Under the pieces are notes generated by a model that was not told where the DNA came from, searched no databases, and saw nothing but the letters and a program-made list of their open reading frames with translations. Shown piece after piece: positions 1,738 through 11,303 of a stretch of DNA of 18,167 nt (position 1 is the first letter of the stretch; each line of letters begins with the position of its first letter). Origin of the DNA: a virus (lineage: Duplodnaviria; Heunggongvirae; Uroviricota; Caudoviricetes); the IMG/VR virus record IMGVR_UViG_2657245521_000006. The stretch is one strand, 5' to 3'. The translations under genes and the position numbers were made by a program.

Positions 1738-2007
1738 ATGGGGCTTGAAATGATTATCGGCCTGGTTGTTGCTGTGCTGGCTGCAATTGCAGGTGCTTTT
1801 GGGCTGGGCAAATCACGCGGTACCAGTATCGCTGAAACAAAAGCGGACCAACAACGCACTGAAGAACGTGCAATAGCTATTGAAGCGGTTGCAGAACGCC
1901 GGGTAGAAACAACAAAAGGAGCCAGGGATGTACAACAGACTGTTAACCATATGCCTGATGACGCTGCTGATCGCGAGCTGCGCAAAAACTGGACACGTAA
2001 GGATTGA
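1738..2007 (+). CDS. i-spanin (Rz-like inner-membrane spanin)
   Basis: ATG 1738 preceded by GAGG; N-terminal TM helix MIIGLVVAVLAAIAGAFGL then charged helical periplasmic region; o-spanin gene embedded at its 3' end. Confidence 0.7.
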   Translation: MGLEMIIGLVVAVLAAIAGAFGLGKSRGTSIAETKADQQRTEERAIAIEAVAERRVETTKGARDVQQTVNHMPDDAADRELRKNWTRKD

Positions 2008-2149
2008 GGTTATTGACACCGGCTGCGATTGGGTAAAACCCATCTACGGCACTGCTCATGATTGGGAAGTGCTGGACAGGCAGACCAAGAAAGACATTCT
2101 TATGCATAACAAAGTGTGGATGTCAAACTGTGGCTCTATAACTTATTGA
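1928..2149 (+). CDS. o-spanin (Rz1-like outer-membrane lipoprotein), overlapped architecture
   Basis: Starts inside the i-spanin in another frame with perfect SD AAGGAG 8 nt upstream; lipobox L-I-A-S-C (Cys18); extends past the i-spanin stop. Confidence 0.65.
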   Translation: MYNRLLTICLMTLLIASCAKTGHVRIEVIDTGCDWVKPIYGTAHDWEVLDRQTKKDILMHNKVWMSNCGSITY

Positions 2150-2799
2150 TTTTGTTTTTTGTTGTCTACCATATCAGGCAATGTGAAGGCATATAGAAGA
2201 AATACTTCGGTGAAACCAATCATTTCTTGAGCATCTTCTTTTGAAAATTCTTCATCAGAATGAACTGCTCCATTGGAATCGATTCGAACTATATGTGCCC
2301 ATTCCCTCATTTGATCTGTAATCAGTCCCTTAGCATGCAACATAGAAATCCGTTTAACCAATTTTTCATCTTTTGAGTCATTTCCCAGTAACTCCCGTGT
2401 AGCAATGTCCAAGACTTTACGGCAAAGCATAACGGATGTGTCGAAACGACAGCGCCCTAAGTTGTCTTTTGCTTCTATGAAAGCCATAGCAGCACGTGGC
2501 GGAGTGTGTTCGGGGGCGTTAAGGAGGGTGGGTTTCGGGATGATATCAATCAACTGGTACTCAGTATTTCCAGGAATGATTACGTTTACATCATTATTTT
2601 GCCTAGATTTTGCACGAGGTAAATAACCACCGGGATTATTCATTTTTACAATAGCAATACCTGATTGAAAACAGCTTCGACAACAAAATGCAATATTAAC
2701 TAAAGGCCCGGCGTTGATACGCAGTTCTGCCCATCCTTCAAGGACAGCATTTTCCCTCAGACAATGTGGGCAAGTGATATCGAAAGTGAGAATTCCCAT
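2143..2799 (-). CDS. Zinc-ribbon plus DUF4145-like helical domain protein (about 218 aa); candidate defence/abortive-infection-type cargo
   Basis: Minus ORF; start taken at ATG 2799-2797 with GGAG 7 nt upstream (MGILTFDITCPHC...); N-terminal CxxC...CCxxC; C-terminal ...HIVRIDSNGAVHSDEEFSKEDAQEMIGFTEVFLLYAF matches my memory of the DUF4145 signature; AT-rich codon usage unlike phage core genes. Confidence 0.7.
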   Translation of the reverse strand: MGILTFDITCPHCLRENAVLEGWAELRINAGPLVNIAFCCRSCFQSGIAIVKMNNPGGYLPRAKSRQNNDVNVIIPGNTEYQLIDIIPKPTLLNAPEHTPPRAAMAFIEAKDNLGRCRFDTSVMLCRKVLDIATRELLGNDSKDEKLVKRISMLHAKGLITDQMREWAHIVRIDSNGAVHSDEEFSKEDAQEMIGFTEVFLLYAFTLPDMVDNKKQNQ

Positions 2800-3479
2800 G
2801 ACTCTACTCCATACATTAAAAGAAATTGAAAATGAATTACACAATGCACAACGACCTGAGTCTACACTCCTTCAACGATATGAAGTATCGAATGAGATTA
2901 AAAAAAAGGAGTTTGTAGTCGCTTTGATCGGTAAACTGATAGAATTGGACCGCCGTCTCTATGTCACATCATTGAAGCCTTAGTTTCAATTTTACCGATT
3001 TATCGCTTAAGGGGTAGGACTTCAACACTACTAAGTGAGCATTGCAGCAGGCATTCAGGGGAATGCTGTGACAGTAGTTAGCTAGGGTAAACCGTTTGCG
3101 CCTGGGGATTTTACTTTGCGACGGAAAATTAAAAAACTATATGATTTCTTATCCCACTAGGATGTCTGCGGACTACTACTGACTGTTTAGGCTATTACGA
3201 GGGGCTCAAACTCAACGTCTGGCATCAACGCAGAACTGAAAAAGTCGCCATGAATGTGGTTACGGTATTTGGTGGGATATAAACGTACCTTCATTTCTAA
3301 GCTTGATAATCACCTTTGTCCGAATTGCCTACGCGATAGTCATGTAGTTTTAGTCATAACCGTTTACCCTATTGATGTCAAGATAAATTGGATAACACTG
3401 ATGAATCGAACCTCTAAATCCTTTGATGGGCCACTCATAGCTGACTGGTTCAAAAAAGTGTTATCAATGGTATGATAAG

Positions 3480-3509
3480 TTGAGATGAAAGGTGTAAATG
3501 AACTATAAT
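3480..3509 (+). promoter_or_regulatory. Candidate sigma70 promoter for the two-gene cargo operon (-35 TTGAGA, 18-nt spacer, -10 TATAAT)
   Basis: TTGAGA at 3480-3485 and TATAAT at 3504-3509, about 35 nt upstream of ATG 3545. Confidence 0.4.
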
Positions 3510-3544
3510 AATTCAACAGTTAATCTGAGAAAAATGGATTATGT

Positions 3545-3814
3545 ATGTCGAATGTAAAAAAAATAGATGCTATAGTTCAAAATTTATTTGAATTCAGAGA
3601 TGCTACAGGTGAACTTACGGATAAAAATATTGTTTTAATACAAAAAATCATAACGAACTTACCTGACTATGCTGGTAAGGATCCATATGAATTTTATTCA
3701 TCATTTTCTGAAGATATTAATGAGTCGCTCAAAGCAATTGCCAATTATCATAAGGCACATGCTAAATACATTAATGCCCTCGATAAATTAGCAGAGCTTA
3801 GGTCGGAGGGGTAA
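3545..3814 (+). CDS. Hypothetical small acidic helical protein (89 aa), first gene of the cargo operon
   Basis: ORF in very AT-rich DNA; followed 2 nt later by the coupled second gene; no family recognised. Confidence 0.6.
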   Translation: MSNVKKIDAIVQNLFEFRDATGELTDKNIVLIQKIITNLPDYAGKDPYEFYSSFSEDINESLKAIANYHKAHAKYINALDKLAELRSEG

Positions 3815-3816
3815 TA

Positions 3817-4194
3817 ATGGCTACGGAAGATATTCAGGCTTTGTTATCTAAAGTTAATGCGTTAAGATTTGAAGATAAAAGAATAGAGAAGGAAACAGGA
3901 GAGATTGAAAATGAAATTCAGGCTCAATTTCTTCGTGATGGTAAAACAAGGAGTACATTAACCATAACATTTATGAGAGGCTTTTTTGGTCTTATCGTTT
4001 TTTCTTTTATATTTGTGATAGTTTATAACTATTGCGCAGTGCAATGGGTACTTCAATTACAAAGCAAAGGGCTCATGGAGGCTTCTAAAAGTATCGCACT
4101 ACTTGAGTTAGATAAGGTGTTATCTATTATGGTTAGTGCGTTAGGAACATCTCTTGGGTTTATAATTGGCTATTATTTTAAAGACAAAAAATAA
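3817..4194 (+). CDS. Hypothetical membrane protein (125 aa; cytoplasmic coiled N-terminus plus two predicted TM helices), second gene of the cargo operon
   Basis: Strong SD GGAGGGG before ATG 3817; hydrophobic segments LTITFMRGFFGLIVFSFIFVIVY and VLSIMVSALGTSLGFIIGYYF; terminator downstream. Confidence 0.65.
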   Translation: MATEDIQALLSKVNALRFEDKRIEKETGEIENEIQAQFLRDGKTRSTLTITFMRGFFGLIVFSFIFVIVYNYCAVQWVLQLQSKGLMEASKSIALLELDKVLSIMVSALGTSLGFIIGYYFKDKK

Positions 4195-4269
4195 ATAATT
4201 TAATTTTACATTGCTATTTATGTTTTGCTTTTAAGATTTTTAACTTTCTAGATGTAGAGTTATTGTTAA

Positions 4270-4297
4270 AGCACTGGTATTTGCCAGTGCTTTTTTA
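4270..4297 (+). terminator. Rho-independent terminator closing the cargo operon
   Basis: Stem AGCACTGG / CCAGTGCT with loop TATTTG, followed by TTTTTT. Confidence 0.55.
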
Positions 4298-4695
4298 TTA
4301 AAATCCGCGGATTAATGACGGCAATCATGAATACTCCTCCAAAGACTGATCCAACGATACGGGTGTATAAGTCACACTTGTTTAATCTGTGATTGATGGC
4401 ACTATAATTTATGTTGCACAACATAAACTGCCGATGGAGGGAATTGAGTGCTGAGCATGTCAGACATAAGTGTGTTGTCGAAGGTCTCCTCAGGCATGGT
4501 TTCTGCATAACGTCGACACTTGAAAGCCTCCATAATGACAATAAAGTATAAGTATTATCATTATTAATTGTCACTTGCCGTTGCGACATGCTTGGGCGGC
4601 GACCGCCTAAGTTCTCTTTATAAATGAGAAGTTCCCGCTAGCGACCGTTTCTGATTCCTTTTTTTCTACTAAGTTTGTATCAAATAAACAGGATA

Positions 4696-5064
4696 ATGCC
4701 GATGCCAGCACGAGCAAAGCGTCCATGCCGGCACAAGGGCTGTGCGGCAGTTACCAACGATGCCAGTGGCTATTGTGATCAACACCGACAGCGGCATGCT
4801 GGTGATGGCTGGCGTAACTACCAGGCAGGAAAGAGCAGGCAGGAACGTGGATATGGGCGGACCTGGGAAATTAAACGGGTGCGTATCCTTCAGCGTGATA
4901 AGTACCTGTGTCAGAACCATCGCCGGCAGAAGATTGCAAAAAAGGCGACCAGCGTTGACCACATCATTCCAAAAGCTCATGGCGGTACTGATGACGATTT
5001 CAATCTTGAGTCGTTGTGCTGGGACTGCCACAGAGCGAAGACGGCAAGAGAGCGTATCCGATGA
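4696..5064 (+). CDS. HNH endonuclease, phage packaging-associated (HK97 gp74-like position)
   Basis: C-terminal HNH motif ...DHIIPKAHGGTDDDFNLESLCWDCHRAK; Cys/His-rich N-terminus; just upstream of terminase genes; start ambiguous between ATG 4696 and 4702 (SD AGGA at 4689-4692 favours 4702). Confidence 0.85.
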   Translation: MPMPARAKRPCRHKGCAAVTNDASGYCDQHRQRHAGDGWRNYQAGKSRQERGYGRTWEIKRVRILQRDKYLCQNHRRQKIAKKATSVDHIIPKAHGGTDDDFNLESLCWDCHRAKTARERIR

Positions 5065-5398
5065 GTTAGACCCATTGCACATATTTTGGTTCACGGCTCT
5101 ATACAATAGCTAACTGCCCAAAATAATGGGGTGGTTCATCGCGCCGCGCCAACCTGCACTGCAGCTATTGTGGGCAGTCAGGGCATAACTCTAGTGCCTG
5201 TCCACATAATGAGAGCTGCGGTCGTCGGCGCAGCCTGAATGATGACTTCCATCTTGATTGATGCCCACACAGGCCAGGGGAAGGGGGGATCAAATCCCTG
5301 ACCCCTTTCGCCTTCCAGGACTGCCGCCTGAAGGACATTTTTGCACGTCATAAATAAGGATCTTTTTTCCGGTAGGTTTCACCTATTAAAGAGGAGTT

Positions 5399-5833
5399 AT
5401 GGCTGGTGGAATTCGATCGTCTGGAGGGGGGAGAAAACCCATCTTACCCGCCGGACAAAAAAGTAAATTAACCCGAATTGCACCTCCTGCAGAGTTAATG
5501 GGGGAGGCTGCAATAAGACTGTGGAAAACCCAAAGTAAAATTCTGATCGAAAGAGGCGTGTTTGAACTGGAGGATGCGCCCCTGCTTGTGGCTTACTGCA
5601 ATGCCTTCCATTTAATGCTTGAAGCTGAAAAATTGCTCTCGTCAAGCCTGACGACCGAAAGTGAAATGGGGGGATTAAAGAAACATCCCGCCGTTAACAT
5701 CAGAAATGATTCAGTTTCCCAGATAGCCCGTCTTGGTTCGCTTCTGGGGTTGGATCCGCTCAGCCGAATTCGGATGCGTGGCGGTGGAAATGATCCTGAC
5801 GACGACGGGAATGAATTTGATGAGTTTGACTGA
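5399..5833 (+). CDS. Terminase small subunit (P27-family-like)
   Basis: 144 aa; SD AGAGGAG before ATG; 1-nt TGATG overlap with the large terminase; acidic C-terminal tail. Confidence 0.8.
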   Translation: MAGGIRSSGGGRKPILPAGQKSKLTRIAPPAELMGEAAIRLWKTQSKILIERGVFELEDAPLLVAYCNAFHLMLEAEKLLSSSLTTESEMGGLKKHPAVNIRNDSVSQIARLGSLLGLDPLSRIRMRGGGNDPDDDGNEFDEFD

Positions 5834-7554
5834 TGGCTACATATCCGAACGTCAATGCAGCGAACCAGTATGCAAGAGATGTTGTTGGCGGGAAGATCCT
5901 TGCTTGTCAGTTAACTGTGCTTGCCTGTCAAAGACACCTTGATGATTTGGAACGTGCGAAGGATCCTGCCTGGCCTTACCGGTTTGATAAAAACAAGGCC
6001 GAGCGATTTTTGCGCTTTGCTCAGAAGATGCCTCATACGGCCGGTGAATGGGCCAGGAAGAAACTACGAATAGAATTTGAGCCCTGGCAAAAGTTTGCCC
6101 TTGGTGTGCCATTTGGATGGGTTAATAAGAAGTCCGGATTCCGGCGTTTTTCTGAAATATATATTGAGGTGCCCAGGAAAAATGGGAAATCCGCAATTGC
6201 AGCTGCCGTTGGTAATTATATGTTTTGCGCCGATGGTGAACATGGTGCAGAAGTGTACTGTGGCGCCACTACTGAAAAACAAGCCTGGAAAGTCTTCTCT
6301 CCCGCTCTACAAATGGTAAAAAAACTCCCGGCATTGCGACAAAAATACTCAGTCAAACCCTGGGCGAAGAAAATGACCCGTCCGGATGGCTCTGTTTTTG
6401 CGCCAGTCATCGGCGATCCTGGTGACGGCGATTCCCCTTCATGTGCAATTATTGATGAATATCACGAGCATCAGACTGATGCACTTTATACAACGATGAC
6501 TACCGGGATGGGGGCAAGGGAGCAGCCTGTTACTCTGATTATTACTACAGCGGGTTATGACATTACTTCGCCCTGTTACGAGAAGCGTGTGCAGATAGTG
6601 GAAATTCTCCGCCGTAACCGGACAGGAGAAGAAAACGAGACAATATTTGGCATTATATACGGTCTGGATGACGATGATGACTGGACCAGGCCCGAAGCGC
6701 TGATTAAAGCAAATCCCAACTTTGGTGTTTCTGTTAAAGAGCATTTTCTTCGGGCGAAGCAGTTACTGGGAATATCCAATCCCAGCCAGACTAACAAAAT
6801 TCTGACCAAGCACTTTAACCGGTGGGTAAGTGCAAAAACGGTTTTTTATGACCTGCAAAGATGGATGGCTGCTGCGGATAAAAACCTTAAATTATCTGAT
6901 TTTGTTGATGAGGATTGCTGGCTGGGTATTGATCTGGCCTCGAAAGTAGACCTGAATGCCGTAGTGCCAGTGTTCAGGAGAGAGGTTGCTGGTATAACCC
7001 ATTTTTACTGTGTGGGGCCGCTGTTCTGGGCGCCTGAAGATACAATTTATTCACCAGATCCCACGCTGAAAACCATTTCTGAACGTTACCAGTCATTTGT
7101 GAAACAGGGGGTATTGATACCTACTGAAGGGGCTGAGGTGGATTATCGGTTAATTTTTGAGTCAATTCTTCAGTTACGCCAGCAGGTTAAAATTGTCCAG
7201 TGCCCGATAGATCCTTACGGGGCAACATCATTGCGCCATCTGCTTGAAGAGGAGGGGCTGGAATCCGTTGAGATCAGGCAAAATTTTACACATATGAGTG
7301 ATCCAATGCGTGAAATTGAGGCGGCGCTGGCATCAGGACGCTTTCATCATGACGGTAACCCTATCATGAACTGGTGCATCCAGAATGTTATAGGGCGTTA
7401 CTTACCAGGAAGCGATGACATTGTTCGCCCAGGGAAGGAGAGAAAGCAAAACAAAATAGATGGCGCGGTAGGACTAATGATGGGAGTCGGGCGAGCCATG
7501 CTGAACGGAACTGTCAGTAAATCGGCTTATGATGAGGAAGATATTACATGTTGA
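5833..7554 (+). CDS. Terminase large subunit (ATPase/nuclease)
   Basis: 573 aa; P-loop-like VPRKNGKSAIAAAVGNYMF then acidic segment CAIIDEYHEH; typical length and position. Confidence 0.93.
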   Translation: MATYPNVNAANQYARDVVGGKILACQLTVLACQRHLDDLERAKDPAWPYRFDKNKAERFLRFAQKMPHTAGEWARKKLRIEFEPWQKFALGVPFGWVNKKSGFRRFSEIYIEVPRKNGKSAIAAAVGNYMFCADGEHGAEVYCGATTEKQAWKVFSPALQMVKKLPALRQKYSVKPWAKKMTRPDGSVFAPVIGDPGDGDSPSCAIIDEYHEHQTDALYTTMTTGMGAREQPVTLIITTAGYDITSPCYEKRVQIVEILRRNRTGEENETIFGIIYGLDDDDDWTRPEALIKANPNFGVSVKEHFLRAKQLLGISNPSQTNKILTKHFNRWVSAKTVFYDLQRWMAAADKNLKLSDFVDEDCWLGIDLASKVDLNAVVPVFRREVAGITHFYCVGPLFWAPEDTIYSPDPTLKTISERYQSFVKQGVLIPTEGAEVDYRLIFESILQLRQQVKIVQCPIDPYGATSLRHLLEEEGLESVEIRQNFTHMSDPMREIEAALASGRFHHDGNPIMNWCIQNVIGRYLPGSDDIVRPGKERKQNKIDGAVGLMMGVGRAMLNGTVSKSAYDEEDITC

Positions 7555-7727
7555 TCACTCTTTTAAGTTTTATTATCGGCCTCACCGGAGCCGGGTTAGT
7601 GTCTGCCGGTGCCTGGCTTATTTCACCTGCAGCCGGGCTTATTACTGGCGGTTCAATCTGCCTGCTGTGGTCATTTTTAATCGCGAAATCGATGTCCGCC
7701 AGCGTAATTAAATCAGGGGGTGAATAA
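7548..7727 (+). CDS. Small two-TM membrane protein (59 aa), translationally coupled between terminase and portal; not in the supplied ORF track
   Basis: Hand translation MLITLLSFIIGLTGAGLVSAGAWLISPAAGLITGGSICLLWSFLIAKSMSASVIKSGGE; ATG 7548 overlaps the terminase stop and its TAA overlaps portal ATG 7727 (TAATG). Confidence 0.4.
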   Translation: MLITLLSFIIGLTGAGLVSAGAWLISPAAGLITGGSICLLWSFLIAKSMSASVIKSGGE

Positions 7728-8986
7728 TGTTCATTCCCCAGATGTTTCGGGGTAAATCTCAGTCTGGTGGTGGTTTCTGGCAGGCGATGCTGGGTGGGGT
7801 GAGTTCCAGCCAGAGCAAGGCGGGGATCATTATCACTCCTGAAACCGCACTGGCGTTATCGGCGGTCCGGGCATGCGTAACGCTTCTGGCAGAATCGGTG
7901 GCGCAGTTGCCGTGTGAACTTTACAGGCGAGGCGCTAACGGAGGCCGTGAACGGGCGACTGACCACCCTGTTTATGATCTGATTCATTCCCAGCCCAACA
8001 AAAAAGACACCTCGTTTGAATACTTTGAGCAGCAACAGGGCCTGCTCGGGCTGGAGGGAAATTGCTACTCGATCATCGACAGGGACGGGAAAGGGTATCC
8101 CCGCGAATTAATCCCGGTTAATCCCAAAAAAGTCATCGTCCTGAAAGGGCCTGACGGGATGCCCTATTATGAACTCCCCGAAATTGGCGAAACGTTGCCA
8201 ATGCGCATGATGCATCATGTGAAGGTTTTCTCGCTGGATGGTTATATCGGTAGCTCTCCGATCCAGACGAACGCAGACGTTCTTGGGCTGAACCTGGCCG
8301 TTGAAGAGCATGCTTCTCAGGTTTTTCGCCGTGGCACAACGATGAGCGGCGTTATTGAGCGACCAAAGGAGGCTCCGACAATAAAGAACCAGGAGAAGAT
8401 TGACCAACTTCTTGCTAAATGGACGGATCGTTATTCCGGTATGCGTAATGCCTTTTCTGTCGCATTGCTTCAGGAAGGGATGAGCTACAAACAGCTATCT
8501 CAGGATAATGAGAAAGCGCAGCTGTTGCAGTCCCGCCAGTGGGGCGTGGAGGAAGTTTGCCGACTCTATAAAATCCCGCCTCATATGGTGCAGATGCTGG
8601 CGAAAGCCACAAATAACAACATTGAGCATCAGGGGCTGCAGTTCGTCATGTATACGCTTTTAGCCTGGCTGAAGCGTCATGAAGGCGCATTAATGCGCGA
8701 TCTGCTTTTACCCAGCGAGCGCGGTAGTCTGTACATTGAATTCAATGTATCCGGCCTGCTGCGCGGGGATCAGAAGTCACGCTATGAATCTTATGCGCTG
8801 GGCCGTCAGTGGGGCTGGTTATCGGTTAATGACATTCGCCGCATGGAGAACCTTCCTCCCATCGCCGGAGGGGACAAATACCTGACGCCTCTGAATATGG
8901 TCGACAGTAAACAAATCTTACCTGGCAATAACGCGCCAACAGCTAAACAACTGGCAGAAATCGAAACTATTCTGGCCAGAGCCTGA
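7727..8986 (+). CDS. Portal protein (HK97-family-like)
   Basis: 419 aa directly after terminase; sequence character of HK97-type portals (from memory). Confidence 0.9.
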   Translation: MFIPQMFRGKSQSGGGFWQAMLGGVSSSQSKAGIIITPETALALSAVRACVTLLAESVAQLPCELYRRGANGGRERATDHPVYDLIHSQPNKKDTSFEYFEQQQGLLGLEGNCYSIIDRDGKGYPRELIPVNPKKVIVLKGPDGMPYYELPEIGETLPMRMMHHVKVFSLDGYIGSSPIQTNADVLGLNLAVEEHASQVFRRGTTMSGVIERPKEAPTIKNQEKIDQLLAKWTDRYSGMRNAFSVALLQEGMSYKQLSQDNEKAQLLQSRQWGVEEVCRLYKIPPHMVQMLAKATNNNIEHQGLQFVMYTLLAWLKRHEGALMRDLLLPSERGSLYIEFNVSGLLRGDQKSRYESYALGRQWGWLSVNDIRRMENLPPIAGGDKYLTPLNMVDSKQILPGNNAPTAKQLAEIETILARA

Positions 8987-9022
8987 TTATTCCCCGCTAT
9001 GCGGGCTGACCTGGTATATCTC

Positions 9023-9943
9023 ATGACAACAAAATTACTTAACCTGCCGCACCTCGCAGAAATGGTCTTCGGTGTGCCTCATTACGCAACACAACAGACG
9101 ATGGACGCCGTGAAGGCGGTATTGCTTCCCCGTATTCAGGGAGCGGTGACGGATCCGGTCATTACGATGGCGCTAAATCCGGATGATTCGCCATCCCCTG
9201 AAGAGGTTCAGCCAGCCGGTGGTATCGCGGTTATTCCCGTTCACGGGATTCTGGTCCCCCGGCGCGGGCAAATTACAGCGATGTGTACCGAACTGACGAG
9301 CTATGAGCGAATCCGCAGCCAGCTGCATTCGGCATTAAATGACCCATCCATCAGTGAAATCGTTCTGGATATTAATTCAGGCGGCGGTTTAGCGCCCGGG
9401 TGCAAAGAGCTGGCTGATTATATTTATCAGTCGTGTGAAACGAAGCCGATCACCGCTATTGTGAACTTTAATGCCCTCTCTGCCGCGTATTTTATCGCGT
9501 CGGCCTGCAGCAAGATTGTCGTCAGTCAGACCAGTGGCGTTGGCTCCATCGGGGTGATCATGGAGCACCTTGATACGTCAAAGCTGGAAGAGAGCATGGG
9601 AGTGAAATTTACTGCACTCTACCGGGGAGATAACAAGAACAATGGCACGCCACATGCTTCGTTGAGTGAATCGGCCCTGGCGATGTTCGACAAAATGCTC
9701 GACGACATGTACGAGACATTTACCTCCTCAGTGGCTGAGTACCGGGGCCTTAAACAGCAGGCAGTAATCGATACCCAGGCGGGAACCTACTTCGGCGCTG
9801 ATGCCATTTCAGCAGGTCTTGCTGATGAAGTTTCGGATCCTCAGTCTGCGATTAATGCCATTGCGGCAAAGTACAAACAACCTCAACAAACCACGTCCAT
9901 AAAGTTGCAGGCAGCCGCGATGGACCTGCAAACCAGAATGTAA
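9023..9943 (+). CDS. Head maturation protease, S49/ClpP-like (lambda gpC-like)
   Basis: N-terminus MTTKLLNLPHLAEMVFGVPH parallels lambda C (MTAELRNLPHIASMAFNEP, from memory); S49-like segments GGIAVIPVHGIL and SGVGSIGV; start set at internal ATG 9023 by that alignment. Confidence 0.85.
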   Translation: MTTKLLNLPHLAEMVFGVPHYATQQTMDAVKAVLLPRIQGAVTDPVITMALNPDDSPSPEEVQPAGGIAVIPVHGILVPRRGQITAMCTELTSYERIRSQLHSALNDPSISEIVLDINSGGGLAPGCKELADYIYQSCETKPITAIVNFNALSAAYFIASACSKIVVSQTSGVGSIGVIMEHLDTSKLEESMGVKFTALYRGDNKNNGTPHASLSESALAMFDKMLDDMYETFTSSVAEYRGLKQQAVIDTQAGTYFGADAISAGLADEVSDPQSAINAIAAKYKQPQQTTSIKLQAAAMDLQTRM

Positions 9944-9975
9944 CCCGGCGCTCACGCGTCATTACCACCAGAAAG

Positions 9976-9998
9976 CAGCCTTAGCGCTGTTTTTTTTA
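9976..9998 (+). terminator. Weak terminator-like element (4-bp GC stem plus T8 run) between protease and capsid gene
   Basis: CAGC...GCTG stem followed by TTTTTTTT at 9990-9998; stem is short. Confidence 0.3.
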
Positions 9999-10019
9999 TA
10001 CCTGAAAAGAGAGAAAACT

Positions 10020-11303
10020 ATGTCACAGATTGAAGAATTACGTCGTCAGCGTGCGGGTATTAATGAGCAGGTACAGGCCCTGGCCACGATTGAAACTACC
10101 GGTGGAACGCTGACAGCGGAGCAGTTAACCGAATTTGCCAGCATGCAGCAGCAGTTCACGGATATCAGCGCCAAAATTGAGCGTCTGGAAGCGGCTGAAC
10201 GTGCTGCGGCGCTTGTTGCCGCACCGGTTAGAGGCACACAGCAGGCTCCTGGTGTCATCGTTAAGGCGGAGCCAAAGCAATATACCGGGGCAGGCATGAC
10301 CCGTCTGGTAATGTCGATTGCAGCAGCGGAGGGTAACATCCAGGAGGCTGCAAAATTTGCGGCGGAAGAACTGAATGACCAGTCTGTCTCGATGGCCATC
10401 AGCACTGCCGCTGCGTCAGGCGGCGTTCTTATTCCGCAAAACCTTCACAGCGAAGTGATTGAGCTACTGCGCGATCGTACCATCGTTCGTAAGCTGGGCG
10501 CGCGCTCCATTCCGCTGCCGAACGGCAATATGGCGCTGCCGCGTCTGGCCGGTGGAGCGACGGCGAACTATACCGGGGAAGGTAAGGATGCGAAAACATC
10601 AGAAGCGCGCTTTGACGATGTGAAACTCACTGCGAAAACCATGATTGCGATGGTGCCCATCTCAAATCAGCTCATTGGCCGCGCAGGTTTTAACGTTGAA
10701 CAACTGGTATTGCAGGATATTCTGACGGCGATTTCTGTTCGCGAAGATAAAGCTTTTCTGCGTGATGATGGTACCGGTGATACGCCGATCGGTATGAAAG
10801 CGCGTGCAACGGAGTGGAATCGCCTTAAACAATGGGCTGGCGCAGATTTATCCCTGAATTCTATTGATGCATACCTGGATGACATCATCCTGATGGCTAT
10901 GGACGGGAACAGCAACATGATCAGCTGCGGCTGGGGCATGTCGAACCGGACCTACATGAAACTGTTCGGGCTGCGCGACGGTAACGGCAACAAGGTTTAC
11001 CCGGAAATGGCCCTGGGGCTGCTGAAGGGATATCCGGTTCAGCGCACCAGCGCTATCCCGGCAAACCTCGGTGACACCGGCAAAGAGTCAGAAATTTACT
11101 TCGCTGACTTCAATGATGTGGTTATCGGTGAAGACGGCAGCATGAAAGTGGCATTCTCTCAGCAAGCCGCCTACCAGGACGGGGACGGCAATATGGTTTC
11201 CGCGTTCTCCCGTAACCAGTCATTGATCCGTGTGGTGACTGAGCACGATATCGGCTTCCGTCATCCGGAAGGTCTTGTACTCGGGACAAAAGTGCTGTTT
11301 TAA
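10020..11303 (+). CDS. Major capsid protein, HK97-fold, with N-terminal coiled-coil delta/scaffold-like domain
   Basis: 427 aa; helical Ala/Glu/Gln-rich N-terminus; position after portal and protease; strong terminator downstream. Confidence 0.9.
   Translation: MSQIEELRRQRAGINEQVQALATIETTGGTLTAEQLTEFASMQQQFTDISAKIERLEAAERAAALVAAPVRGTQQAPGVIVKAEPKQYTGAGMTRLVMSIAAAEGNIQEAAKFAAEELNDQSVSMAISTAAASGGVLIPQNLHSEVIELLRDRTIVRKLGARSIPLPNGNMALPRLAGGATANYTGEGKDAKTSEARFDDVKLTAKTMIAMVPISNQLIGRAGFNVEQLVLQDILTAISVREDKAFLRDDGTGDTPIGMKARATEWNRLKQWAGADLSLNSIDAYLDDIILMAMDGNSNMISCGWGMSNRTYMKLFGLRDGNGNKVYPEMALGLLKGYPVQRTSAIPANLGDTGKESEIYFADFNDVVIGEDGSMKVAFSQQAAYQDGDGNMVSAFSRNQSLIRVVTEHDIGFRHPEGLVLGTKVLF

What the first reader, a model, noticed from the sequence alone, without database searches (positions are those of the whole stretch)
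3545..4297. Translationally coupled two-gene operon (acidic helical protein plus 2-TM membrane protein): candidate abortive-infection, toxin-antitoxin or superinfection-exclusion module
Gene 1 stops at 3812-3814 and gene 2 starts at 3817 behind a strong SD (GGAGGGG). The unit has a near-consensus promoter (TTGAGA-18-TATAAT) and a clean rho-independent terminator. Gene 2 has a cytoplasmic coiled N-terminus followed by two hydrophobic helices, the build of membrane-depolarising effectors or exclusion proteins; gene 1 is small, acidic and helical, as expected of a sensor, antitoxin or regulator. Its extreme AT-richness points to recent horizontal acquisition.
Basis: partly seen in the sequence, partly recalled or inferred. 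Interest (0 to 1): 0.75.

Follow-up and report, generated by a model that had tools for sequence, protein, structure and literature searches.

The report
Mobile two-gene prophage cargo cassette
A small soluble helical protein and a two-helix membrane protein form a self-contained cassette that hops between the known cargo and defence slots of many temperate phages. No function has been shown, and the most likely one is exclusion of other phages.

Summary
g1 (3545-3814, 89 aa) stops 2 nt before g2 (3817-4194, 125 aa). GGAGGGG lies inside the end of g1. An 11/12 sigma-70 match sits at 3480-3509, and a strong terminator follows at 4268-4293 (-16.3 kcal/mol, z -4.8). GC is about 0.32, against about 0.5 in the flanks.

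The pair is a conserved module. Every g2 relative that could be checked (56 of 58 loci) has a tightly coupled ORF of about 100 aa upstream. In Enterobacterales these ORFs form one family that includes g1. Neither protein matches Pfam, NCBIfam, PADLOC, PDB or any fold library; the only hits are unknown-function PHROGs.

g2 is an N-in/C-in two-helix membrane protein. It has a hypervariable cytoplasmic helix and an invariant glycine-zipper second helix (GTSLGFIIGYYFK). g1 is a soluble helical hairpin.

The cassette occupies at least three known phage cargo slots:
- the lysis-to-terminase junction, with four different lysis/terminase combinations;
- the HK97 gp15 slot;
- the P2 old/tin defence hotspot.

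Close relatives of this prophage lack it or carry a different allele. Here it sits beside a RAZR-like gene.

It meets the composition, terminator and presence/absence criteria of a moron. Most likely it is a membrane-effector exclusion module, but this is untested. It is a new family of a known kind.

The parts
3480..3509 (+). Sigma-70-type promoter-like site: TTGAGA, 18-nt spacer, TATAAT. The transcript would start near 3516, giving a leader of about 29 nt.
   Evidence: One search gives an 11/12 match. One search shows it is the only match of 11/12 or better in the window, with 0.18 expected by chance in the island. Function is not shown.
3545..3814 (+). g1: an 89-aa soluble, mildly acidic helical-hairpin protein, a divergent member of the partner family (PHROG 21707).
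   Evidence: family profile matches g1 at E 5e-15 in 5.8 billion sequences. (AlphaFold pLDDT 92; helices 3-42 and 55-88). (no hydrophobic segment). (dN/dS 0.14-0.59 in relatives).
3805..3811 (+). Shine-Dalgarno GGAGGGG for g2, lying inside the last codons of g1. g1 stops at 3812-3814 and g2 starts at 3817.
   Evidence: Read directly from the sequence. Tight coupling (overlap or a gap of at most 19 nt) holds in 56 of 58 loci.
3817..4194 (+). g2: a 125-aa inner-membrane protein (PHROG 20796). It has a hypervariable cytoplasmic N-terminal helix (1-39), the conserved juxtamembrane motif RDGKTRSTLT, TM1 at about 50-76 (invariant Y70 and N71), a periplasmic loop of about 25 aa, TM2 at about 101-121 with an invariant glycine zipper G110xxxG114xxxG118, and a KDKK tail.
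   Evidence: alignment A1; dN/dS 0.04-0.29.
4268..4299 (+). Rho-independent terminator: 11-bp stem, 4-nt loop, then TTTTTTATT.
   Evidence: (-16.3 kcal/mol, z -4.84). A terminator follows g2 in 29 of 43 unique loci, against 5.0 +/- 2.0 in shuffles.
2114..4700 (.). Context: the AT-rich cargo island between the o-spanin and the HNH/terminase genes. It holds the cassette, a RAZR-like gene (2143-2799, minus strand), orf73 and about 500 nt with no called gene.
   Evidence: Similarity to relatives with the same lysis cassette stops at 2100-2114 and resumes at about 4700. GC profile.

Best explanation
g1 and g2 form a mobile two-gene cargo cassette (a 'moron') of temperate phages.

Shown:
- The two genes always travel together and are translationally coupled.
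- Both are under purifying selection.
- The cassette carries its own terminator and a GC content far below its flanks.
- It is absent from, or allelically replaced in, near-identical phage backbones.
- It occurs in at least three unrelated phage slots that are known homes of accessory and exclusion genes. Distant relatives lie in non-phage chromosomal settings in other phyla.
- g2 inserts in the inner membrane with both ends in the cytoplasm. It has a membrane core built for self-association: an invariant Asn in TM1 and an invariant GxxxGxxxG zipper in TM2.
- g1 is a cytoplasmic helical hairpin.

Inferred:
- In the lysogen the cassette is transcribed from its own promoter. During lytic growth the Q-antiterminated late transcript also reads through it.
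- g1 binds the roughly 45-residue cytoplasmic helix of g2. The helix lengths fit a three-helix bundle. This keeps g2 from assembling.
- A signal from an infecting phage removes or overrides g1. g2 then oligomerises through its glycine zipper and makes the membrane leaky, which aborts the infection.
- The fast-evolving parts (g1 and the g2 N-terminus) set specificity. The invariant membrane core is the effector.

The confidence of 0.45 is for the exclusion or abortive-infection function. That the pair is a conserved accessory cassette I hold at about 0.9.
For: Module:
- 56 of 58 loci have a coupled upstream ORF. The two exceptions are cut off by contig ends.
- 37 of 41 unique upstream ORFs form one family that includes g1. 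The family profile matches g1 at E 5e-15.
- A search from the g1 side finds only loci that also have g2, 8 of 8.
- Distant relatives in Planctomycetota, Alphaproteobacteria and candidate-phyla bacteria keep a helical ORF of 80-110 aa directly upstream.
- dN/dS is 0.14-0.59 for g1 and 0.04-0.29 for g2.

Moron features:
- GC is 0.31-0.41 against 0.41-0.59 in the flanks.
- Terminators after g2 are strongly enriched.
- E. coli DA33137 has an 87% identical lysis cassette followed directly by HNH/terminase, with no island.
- APEC O78 carries a different gene (DUF6173) in the same slot.
- L039 has a 96% identical lysis cassette and an 86% identical HNH gene, but a different allele of the pair (g2 43% identical).

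Slots:
- Lysis-to-packaging junction, with four different lysis/terminase combinations.
- Tail chaperone to tape measure, in Proteus and Providencia. This is the HK97 gp15 exclusion-moron slot (PMC3594210).
- P2 gpA-gpQ. This is the old/tin defence hotspot (PMC9122126).
- Next to a type I restriction-modification system in L064.
- In this window, next to a zinc-ribbon + DUF4145 gene with the architecture of RAZR.

Effector build:
- Topology.
- Invariant TM2 motif across phyla.
- Identity is 58% in the membrane core, against 19% in the N-terminus and 25% in g1.
- The same paper states that transmembrane proteins in known anti-phage systems are thought to be suicide effectors (PMC9122126).
Against: - No experiment bears on function.
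- There is no homology to any known defence, toxin-antitoxin, exclusion or holin family.
- Several distant relatives sit among housekeeping genes, not in defence islands.
- A promoter consensus is not enriched upstream of g1 across the family (8.84 against 8.43 in shuffles), so prophage expression is unproven.
- Covariation between g1 and the g2 N-terminus is weak (partial correlation 0.22), so the proposed contact has no sequence support yet.
- Most copies lie right after a lysis cassette, which also fits a role in lysis.
Confidence: 0.45

Rival explanations
1. Superinfection exclusion by blocking DNA entry. g2 sits in the inner membrane and interferes with the channel or host factor that an incoming phage uses for genome injection, as do HK97 gp15, T4 Imm and P22 SieA. 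g1 helps its insertion, stability or dosage. No cell death is involved.
For: - g2 is a small inner-membrane protein carried by prophages.
- In Proteus and Providencia the pair lies exactly where HK97 carries gp15.
- A conserved periplasmic loop (LLELDK) and membrane core could contact a conserved envelope component.
Against: - The variable parts are cytoplasmic (g1 and the g2 N-terminus), while the membrane and periplasmic part is nearly invariant from Enterobacterales to Planctomycetota and candidate-phyla bacteria. This is the reverse of what is expected if the membrane part tracked host- or phage-specific entry factors.
- The known exclusion proteins named here (HK97 gp15, T4 Imm, P22 SieA) act as single proteins (own knowledge).
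- There is no Pfam match to Imm, SieB or YebO-type families.
Confidence: 0.15
2. A plain toxin-antitoxin addiction module. g2 is a membrane toxin and g1 a labile protein antitoxin made first from the same mRNA. It stabilises the prophage or island that carries it and has no dedicated anti-phage role.
For: - The order is small gene first, then a tightly coupled second gene.
- The distribution across phyla is patchy and mobile, with only 229 clusters among 1.84 billion representatives.
- It occurs in chromosomal, non-phage settings.
Against: - g1 has no DNA-binding or known antitoxin domain.
- No known toxin-antitoxin family matches.
- The strong preference for phage cargo and defence slots, and allele swapping in identical backbones, point to selection by phage conflict.
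Confidence: 0.1
3. A lysis accessory of the carrier phage. g2 is a holin-like or holin-modulating membrane protein and g1 its cytoplasmic regulator. This is comparable to T4 RIII acting on the cytoplasmic end of holin T, or to pinholin/antiholin pairs. The pair would tune lysis timing.
For: - Most copies lie directly downstream of the spanin genes, on the late-transcript strand.
- g2 shares with pinholins the N-in/C-in two-helix topology, a glycine-zipper second helix and a basic C-terminal tail (the pinholin properties are from own knowledge).
Against: - The lysis cassette here is already complete: two holins, an endolysin and two spanins.
- Close relatives with the same lysis genes lack the pair.
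- The pair also sits among tail genes, in the P2 gpA-gpQ slot and in non-phage chromosomes.
- It has its own terminator and a foreign composition.
- There is no match to any holin family.
Confidence: 0.1
4. Another lysogenic-conversion or membrane-homeostasis function that has nothing to do with phages, for example tolerance to envelope stress, colicins or host factors, with g1 as a cofactor.
For: - Morons are known to encode very diverse host-benefit functions (PMC3594210).
- In L013 and L049 the pair lies beside effector-like genes with RhoGAP and DXD glycosyltransferase domains.
- Distant relatives have housekeeping neighbours.
Against: There is no positive evidence for any particular function. 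The recurrence in slots documented for exclusion genes, and next to RAZR-like, Thoeris-like and restriction genes, favours conflict with phages.
Confidence: 0.2

Closest known systems
HK97 gp15 moron (superinfection exclusion; Cumby et al. 2012, as summarised in PMC3594210)
   Same: - A small inner-membrane protein encoded on a self-contained insert with foreign GC and its own terminator.
[quoted passage not shown]
   Different: - gp15 is a single gene of the YebO family. Here there are two obligately linked genes with no sequence relation to it.
- g2 has two transmembrane helices and a long cytoplasmic helix.
- The function of g1-g2 is untested.
Lambda RexA/RexB and the related CarolAnn gp44/gp43 and Sbash gp30/gp31 systems (PMC6426606)
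   Same: Both are prophage-encoded two-gene units with one cytoplasmic and one membrane protein. The working model (the cytoplasmic partner controls a membrane channel that depolarises the cell on infection) is the one I propose here.
   Different: - RexA-type partners are 280-370 aa with a DUF4747 domain, and RexB-type proteins have four transmembrane helices.
- g1 is an 89-aa hairpin with no DUF4747, and g2 has two helices. There is no Pfam or PADLOC match.
- The pair is not co-transcribed with the repressor in this window.
Class II holins/pinholins with antiholins, and T4 holin T with the cytoplasmic co-antiholin RIII (own knowledge, not tested here)
   Same: - Two transmembrane helices with N-in/C-in topology.
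- A glycine-zipper second helix and a basic C-terminal tail.
- A small cytoplasmic protein acting on the cytoplasmic end of a hole-former.
- A usual position next to lysis genes.
   Different: - There is no homology to any holin family.
- The carrier phage already has a full lysis cassette.
- The pair is dispensable in close relatives and occurs outside lysis regions and outside phages.
Cargo of the P2 gpA-gpQ hotspot (old, tin and systems with transmembrane effectors; PMC9122126)
   Same: - A variant of the pair, with a 163-aa g1, is found between a P2-type gpA and the portal gene in three metagenomic contigs.
- That slot holds many validated defence systems, some of them with transmembrane effectors.
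   Different: No model in PADLOC-DB 2.0.0 (2023) matches g1 or g2. The pair has not been tested.
CptA(YgfX)/CptB(SdhE) membrane toxin with a small soluble partner (own knowledge, not tested beyond Pfam)
   Same: A two-helix inner-membrane protein of about 130 aa paired with a soluble protein of about 90 aa encoded just upstream.
   Different: No sequence relation was found (no Pfam hit). The cytoplasmic domain of YgfX is C-terminal, not N-terminal. That pair is a chromosomal core gene pair, not phage cargo.

Membership tests
Moron (Juhala/Hendrix definition, as given in PMC3594210) | Extra DNA that is absent from closely related phages | tested here: met
   - DA33137 has an 87% identical lysis cassette that runs straight into HNH/terminase.
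- L039 has a 96% identical cassette but another allele of the pair and no RAZR-like gene.
- APEC O78 carries a different gene in the slot.
Moron (Juhala/Hendrix definition, as given in PMC3594210) | GC content different from the surrounding genes | tested here: met
   GC is 0.32 against about 0.5 in the window, and 0.31-0.41 against 0.41-0.59 in 44 unique loci.
Moron (Juhala/Hendrix definition, as given in PMC3594210) | Own terminator | tested here: met
   The window terminator has z -4.84. A terminator follows g2 in 29 of 43 loci, against 5.0 +/- 2.0 in shuffles and 15% of random windows.
Moron (Juhala/Hendrix definition, as given in PMC3594210) | Own promoter that allows expression from the repressed prophage | tested here: inconclusive
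   The window has an 11/12 site, unique in 18 kb but with a 17% chance expectation in the island. The family-wide consensus score is not above shuffles. Expression cannot be tested here.
RexAB-type exclusion systems | Cytoplasmic partner with a RexA/DUF4747 domain | tested here: not met
   g1 has no Pfam, NCBIfam or PADLOC match. It is an 89-aa helical hairpin.
RexAB-type exclusion systems | Membrane partner with four transmembrane helices (RexB-like) | tested here: not met
   g2 has two hydrophobic segments, two long helices in the model and no Pfam match.
RexAB-type exclusion systems | Membrane depolarisation and aborted infection on phage attack | not testable with these tools
   Needs phage challenge and membrane-potential assays.
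Type II toxin-antitoxin modules | Two small co-transcribed, tightly coupled genes | tested here: met
Type II toxin-antitoxin modules | Antitoxin with a recognisable DNA-binding or known antitoxin domain, and toxin of a known family | tested here: not met
   No domain was found in either protein. The g1 fold matches only generic helical hairpins, all with E > 0.1.
Type II toxin-antitoxin modules | Toxicity of the second gene, neutralised by the first | not testable with these tools
   Needs inducible expression of g2 with and without g1.
Holins (class II/pinholin) and antiholins | Small protein with two transmembrane helices, N-in/C-in topology and a charged C-terminal tail | tested here: met
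   The glycine zipper in TM2 is shown.
Holins (class II/pinholin) and antiholins | Homology to a holin family, or an essential place within the lysis cassette | tested here: not met
   No holin Pfam or PHROG match. Relatives with the same lysis cassette lack the pair. The pair is also found among tail genes, in the P2 gpA-gpQ slot and outside phages.
Known superinfection-exclusion proteins (T4 Imm, P22 SieB, HK97 gp15/YebO) | Sequence membership in the family | tested here: not met
   No Pfam match at E <= 0.1. The only PHROG matches are to unknown-function families.
Catalogued anti-phage defence systems (PADLOC-DB 2.0.0) | Match to any component model | tested here: not met
   No hit for g1 or g2 at E <= 1. 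Later catalogues could not be searched.

The most novel reading that the evidence does not exclude
g1-g2 is a previously unrecognised, very small sensor-effector immune module found across phyla. An 89-aa cytoplasmic hairpin locks the N-terminal helix of a 125-aa two-helix glycine-zipper pore former. The hypervariable coiled-coil surfaces act as the phage-sensing specificity determinant, and the invariant LGFIIGYYFK helix is a universal membrane-breaching effector. Temperate phages shuttle alleles of it between their defence hotspots.
Probability: 0.3. Interest if true: 0.7.

Novelty: new member of a known kind. Interest (0 to 1): 0.45.

Why it matters
If the cassette excludes phages, three things follow.
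- It would add a very compact two-protein system to the list of prophage-borne defences, with a membrane effector that is unrelated to known ones and conserved from Enterobacterales to Planctomycetota and candidate-phyla bacteria.
- Its small size and sharp split into a variable cytoplasmic part and an invariant membrane part would make it a simple model for how a sensor gates a membrane effector.
- The slot between the spanins and the HNH/terminase genes of HK97-type packaging phages would be marked as a defence hotspot worth mining. In this one window it holds a RAZR-like gene and this pair.

If the cassette has no phage phenotype, it remains an ordinary uncharacterised moron.

Tried and rejected
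Searches that found nothing:
- Megablast of the region against E. coli complete genomes and against phage records gave no match.
- g1 alone finds only itself among 5.8 billion proteins. The family emerged only from the ORFs upstream of g2 relatives.
- Pfam, NCBIfam and PADLOC gave nothing for either protein. Pfam on 40 distant g2 relatives gave nothing consistent.
- PDB sequence profiles gave only chance hits.
- Fold searches gave only generic helical hairpins for g1 and nothing for g2 in the viral and PDB libraries.
- Rfam found nothing in 1900-5500.
- Full-text searches for the TM2 motif and for the PHROG ids found no paper.

Tests that were not decisive:
- Profile-profile comparison of the Enterobacterales g1 family with the partners of distant g2 relatives was not significant (hhalign probability 1%). 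I therefore call those partners positional analogues only, although they are related to one another.
- The mirror-tree test for co-evolution of g1 with the g2 N-terminus gave weak correlations.
- A back-translated search with the full g1 alignment failed for lack of conserved stretches. A subfamily alignment worked.

Readings rejected:
- Part of the lysis cassette: the cassette is complete without the pair, and relatives lack the pair.
- Morphogenesis gene set: no support.
- The minus-strand ORF 4266-4589 as a real gene: it has no significant match (best PHROG E = 0.026), overlaps the terminator and is not called in public records.
Full report
**1. The observation**

The region reads as the first stage described it.
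- g1 runs from ATG 3545 to TAA 3812-3814 (89 aa). g2 runs from ATG 3817 to TAA 4192-4194 (125 aa).
- GGAGGGG lies at 3805-3811, inside the last codons of g1. The genes are 2 nt apart.
- The consensus scan finds TTGAGA-18-TATAAT at 3480-3509 (11/12) and a terminator at 4268-4293 followed by a T-run.
- The terminator folds at -16.3 kcal/mol, z -4.84, and none of 200 shuffles folds as well.
- The promoter match is the only one of 11/12 or better on either strand of the whole window. In DNA this AT-rich, 0.18 such matches are expected in the island, and 17% of resamples have at least one. It is well placed but not proven.
- GC falls to 0.31-0.34 over the pair, against about 0.5-0.58 in the phage genes on both sides.
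- g2 has two hydrophobic segments. Positive charges before the first and after the second give an N-in/C-in topology.
- g1 has no hydrophobic segment and is only mildly acidic (pI 5.27).

**2. The surroundings**

The window is the late region of a lambdoid prophage. In order it carries:
- two holins (462-848 and 835-1116);
- a GH19 endolysin (1116-1730);
- i- and o-spanins (ending at 2149);
- an AT-rich stretch;
- an HNH endonuclease (4675-5064);
- small and large terminase subunits (5399-7554);
- portal, protease, capsid and tail genes.

In other genomes the same prophage lies next to icd.

The AT-rich stretch also holds a minus-strand gene (2143-2799). It encodes an N-terminal Cys4 zinc ribbon and a C-terminal DUF4145 domain with an R-x7-H motif. 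This is the architecture described for the abortive-infection RNase RAZR/PD-T7-4, whose catalytic residues are R146 and H154 (PMC13017515). The PADLOC match is weak (E 0.0027).

**3. The pair is a conserved module**

g2 has 132 relatives in the large protein collection. All are unnamed, and all named source organisms are Enterobacterales. It matches PHROG 20796 end to end (E 4.5e-49).

g1 on its own finds only itself. I therefore fetched 57 further loci through g2 and looked upstream.
- In 56 of 58 loci, counting the window, an ORF of about 100 aa ends between 83 nt inside and 19 nt before the longest g2 ORF. The two exceptions are cut off by contig ends.
- 37 of the 41 distinct upstream ORFs fall into one family by phmmer, and g1 is in it.
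- A profile of that family matches g1 at E 5e-15 in 5.8 billion sequences.
- A search from the g1 side in IMG/VR returns only contigs already found through g2, 8 of 8.
- Both genes are under purifying selection among close alleles: dN/dS is 0.14-0.59 for g1 and 0.04-0.29 for g2.

An exhaustive profile search gives only 229 clusters among 1.84 billion representatives. Nearly all are stand-alone proteins of 100-146 aa, and they have no Pfam family.

Distant members come from Planctomycetota, Alphaproteobacteria, candidate-phyla bacteria and marine metagenomes. They keep the signature R..IT..F..G[YF]F, TM1, YN, loop, LD, and TM2 ending in LGF[IV]IGYYFK. They also keep a helical ORF of 80-110 aa directly upstream.

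Those distant partners are related to one another. Their relation to the Enterobacterales g1 family is not significant by hhalign. For them I claim only a conserved arrangement.

**4. Anatomy of the proteins**

The alignment of 30 g2 relatives shows the following:
- a hypervariable N-terminus (residues 1-39);
- a conserved basic juxtamembrane motif (RDGKTRSTLT);
- invariant F56, F57, Y70, N71 and W77 in and after TM1;
- a conserved LLELDK before TM2;
- an invariant TM2, G110-T-S-L-G114-F-I-I-G118-Y-Y-F-K. This is a GxxxGxxxG glycine zipper.

Mean pairwise identity is 58% for the membrane part, 19% for the N-terminus and 25% for g1.

AlphaFold gives g2 one long helix (3-83) that runs from the cytoplasm through TM1, and a second helix (98-122), with pLDDT 78. 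It gives g1 a hairpin of two long helices (3-42 and 55-88), with pLDDT 92.

Fold and sequence searches against solved and predicted structures return nothing specific.

From general knowledge, a polar Asn inside a transmembrane helix and a glycine zipper both promote tight self-association. Glycine zippers are common in small channel- and hole-forming proteins.

**5. The cassette is mobile cargo**

Composition and terminator:
- In 44 unique Enterobacterales loci the pair has GC 0.31-0.41, against 0.41-0.59 in the flanks.
- A terminator follows g2 in 29 of 43 loci. Shuffles give 5.0 +/- 2.0, and 15% of random windows from the same loci have one.
- A promoter consensus upstream of g1 is not enriched family-wide.

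Presence and absence in related backbones:
- E. coli complete genomes hold the same lysis cassette at about 87% identity in 265 genomes, but none holds the island.
- In strain DA33137 the spanins are followed after one small ORF by HNH and terminase.
- In APEC O78 the slot holds a DUF6173 gene on the other strand.
- Contig L039 has a lysis cassette 96% identical and an HNH gene 86% identical to the window. It carries a different allele of the pair (g2 43% identical) and no RAZR-like gene.

**6. Where the cassette sits**

(a) After the lysis genes and before the packaging genes. This occurs with four different combinations of lysis and terminase types:
- GH19 with HNH/Terminase_4 (window, L058);
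- another holin with GH19 (L062);
- T4-type lysozyme plus Rz with Terminase_2/Terminase_6 (L021);
- lysozyme with a lambda-type gpA terminase (L033);
- also in E. coli L077 and Klebsiella phage P7641.

[quoted passage not shown] This is the slot where HK97 carries gene 15, the first moron described, which is a superinfection-exclusion protein (PMC3594210).

(c) Between a P2-type gpA and the portal gene (L051-L053). This is the locus that holds old and tin in P2 and is a documented hotspot of anti-phage systems (PMC9122126).

(d) Outside phages in other phyla, once beside a type I restriction-modification system (L064) and otherwise among ordinary genes.

**7. What it most likely does**

What the evidence establishes:
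- The pair is a self-contained accessory cassette under selection.
- It moves among phage cargo slots.
- Its alleles are exchanged in otherwise near-identical backbones.

The split between an almost invariant membrane core and fast-changing cytoplasmic parts fits an effector coupled to a specificity or control element better than a protein that tracks host entry factors.

I therefore favour a prophage-borne exclusion module that acts on the membrane.
- g1 holds g2 inactive through its cytoplasmic helix. The helices of g1 (34-40 residues) and the cytoplasmic helix of g2 (about 45 residues) are of matching length.
- A phage cue releases g2.
- g2 then self-assembles through the zipper and breaches the membrane.

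Every step after 'g2 is a two-helix inner-membrane protein and g1 a soluble hairpin made just before it' is inference. I give this 0.45.

The rivals are an entry-blocking exclusion protein (0.15), a plain addiction module (0.10), a lysis-timing accessory (0.10) and some other conversion function (0.20). The evidence for and against each is in the structured fields.

**8. Comparison with known systems**

By logic it works most like RexAB-type pairs, a cytoplasmic partner plus a membrane channel. By build it works most like pinholin/antiholin pairs. By genomic behaviour it is a textbook moron like HK97 gp15.

It is not a member of any of these families.
- The defining domains (DUF4747, four-helix RexB, holin families, YebO/Imm/SieB) were searched for and not found.
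- The moron criteria of extra DNA, foreign composition and own terminator are met.
- The own-promoter criterion is inconclusive.

**9. Novelty and score**

Both proteins belong to families with no assigned function and no mention in the searched literature. The kind of element is familiar, and many such candidates exist.

The unusual points are three:
- the strict two-gene linkage;
- the invariant TM2 across phyla;
- the recurrence in three independent phage cargo slots.

I rate it a new member of a known kind, with interest 0.45. The more novel reading, a minimal cross-phylum sensor-effector immune module, has a probability of about 0.3.

Noticed in passing
window 2143-2799 (minus strand): A 218-aa protein with an N-terminal Cys4 zinc ribbon (CPHC...CCRSC) and a C-terminal DUF4145 domain carrying R-x7-H. 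This is the same architecture and R/H spacing as the abortive-infection RNase RAZR/PD-T7-4. The PADLOC match is only weak (E 0.0027). Relatives at about 50% identity occur in Stx-type Shigella and Escherichia phages, where they are annotated 'DNA binding protein' or hypothetical.
   Followed up: partly
window 3254-3475 (+): orf73 has no family match and is not called in public records. It contains CPNCLRDSHVV, which resembles the zinc-ribbon start CPHCLRENAVL of the neighbouring RAZR-like protein (11-aa local match, E 0.003 for the single comparison). It may be a decayed fragment of a second such gene, or chance.
   Followed up: partly
window 4195-4700: About 500 nt between the cassette terminator and the HNH gene have no called gene and no similarity to relatives. 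The stretch holds a minus-strand promoter-like site (4574-4545, 10/12), a plus-strand terminator-like hairpin (4590-4612) and an unsupported minus-strand ORF of 107 aa (4266-4589). Rfam finds nothing.
   Followed up: partly
L039 (IMGVR_UViG_2609459844_000006) 3776-7716: The lysis cassette is 96% identical and the HNH gene 86% identical to the window. The slot between them holds a different allele of the g1-g2 pair (g2 43% identical) and no RAZR-like gene. Alleles have been swapped within an otherwise near-identical backbone.
   Followed up: partly
L060/L061 (Proteus mirabilis) 5685-10500: [quoted passage not shown] This is an unusually large accessory block inside a tail operon.
   Followed up: no
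L077 (E. coli) 1160-2537: The same prophage that carries a g1-g2 allele after its lysis genes also carries a ThsB-type TIR protein and a caspase-like Peptidase_C14 protein on the minus strand, between the Q antiterminator and the holin. This is a second cargo slot with defence-like genes.
   Followed up: no
L064 1-5537: A distant g2 relative (178 aa) with its 94-aa upstream partner lies directly after a type I restriction-modification operon that includes an AAA_13 ATPase gene.
   Followed up: no
L010-L012, L043, L044, L054 (Providencia, Xenorhabdus): In this subfamily the g1 homologue is annotated at about 132 aa. It has a conserved hydrophobic N-terminal extension (IFFPL[FI]A[IL]WM[FL]WK) ahead of the usual start. 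The partner may be membrane-anchored there, or the extension may be an upstream ORF artefact.
   Followed up: no
L003 and L006: The prophage family of this window is integrated next to icd (isocitrate dehydrogenase). In several genomes it is visibly decayed, with head and tail genes missing, yet the lysis genes, the RAZR-like gene and the g1-g2 pair are retained intact.
   Followed up: no
L013 and L049 (Providencia): Here the pair lies after a 564-aa protein with a weak Gp5 C-terminal spike match, and beside genes with RhoGAP and DXD-glycosyltransferase domains. These look like eukaryote-directed effectors.
   Followed up: no
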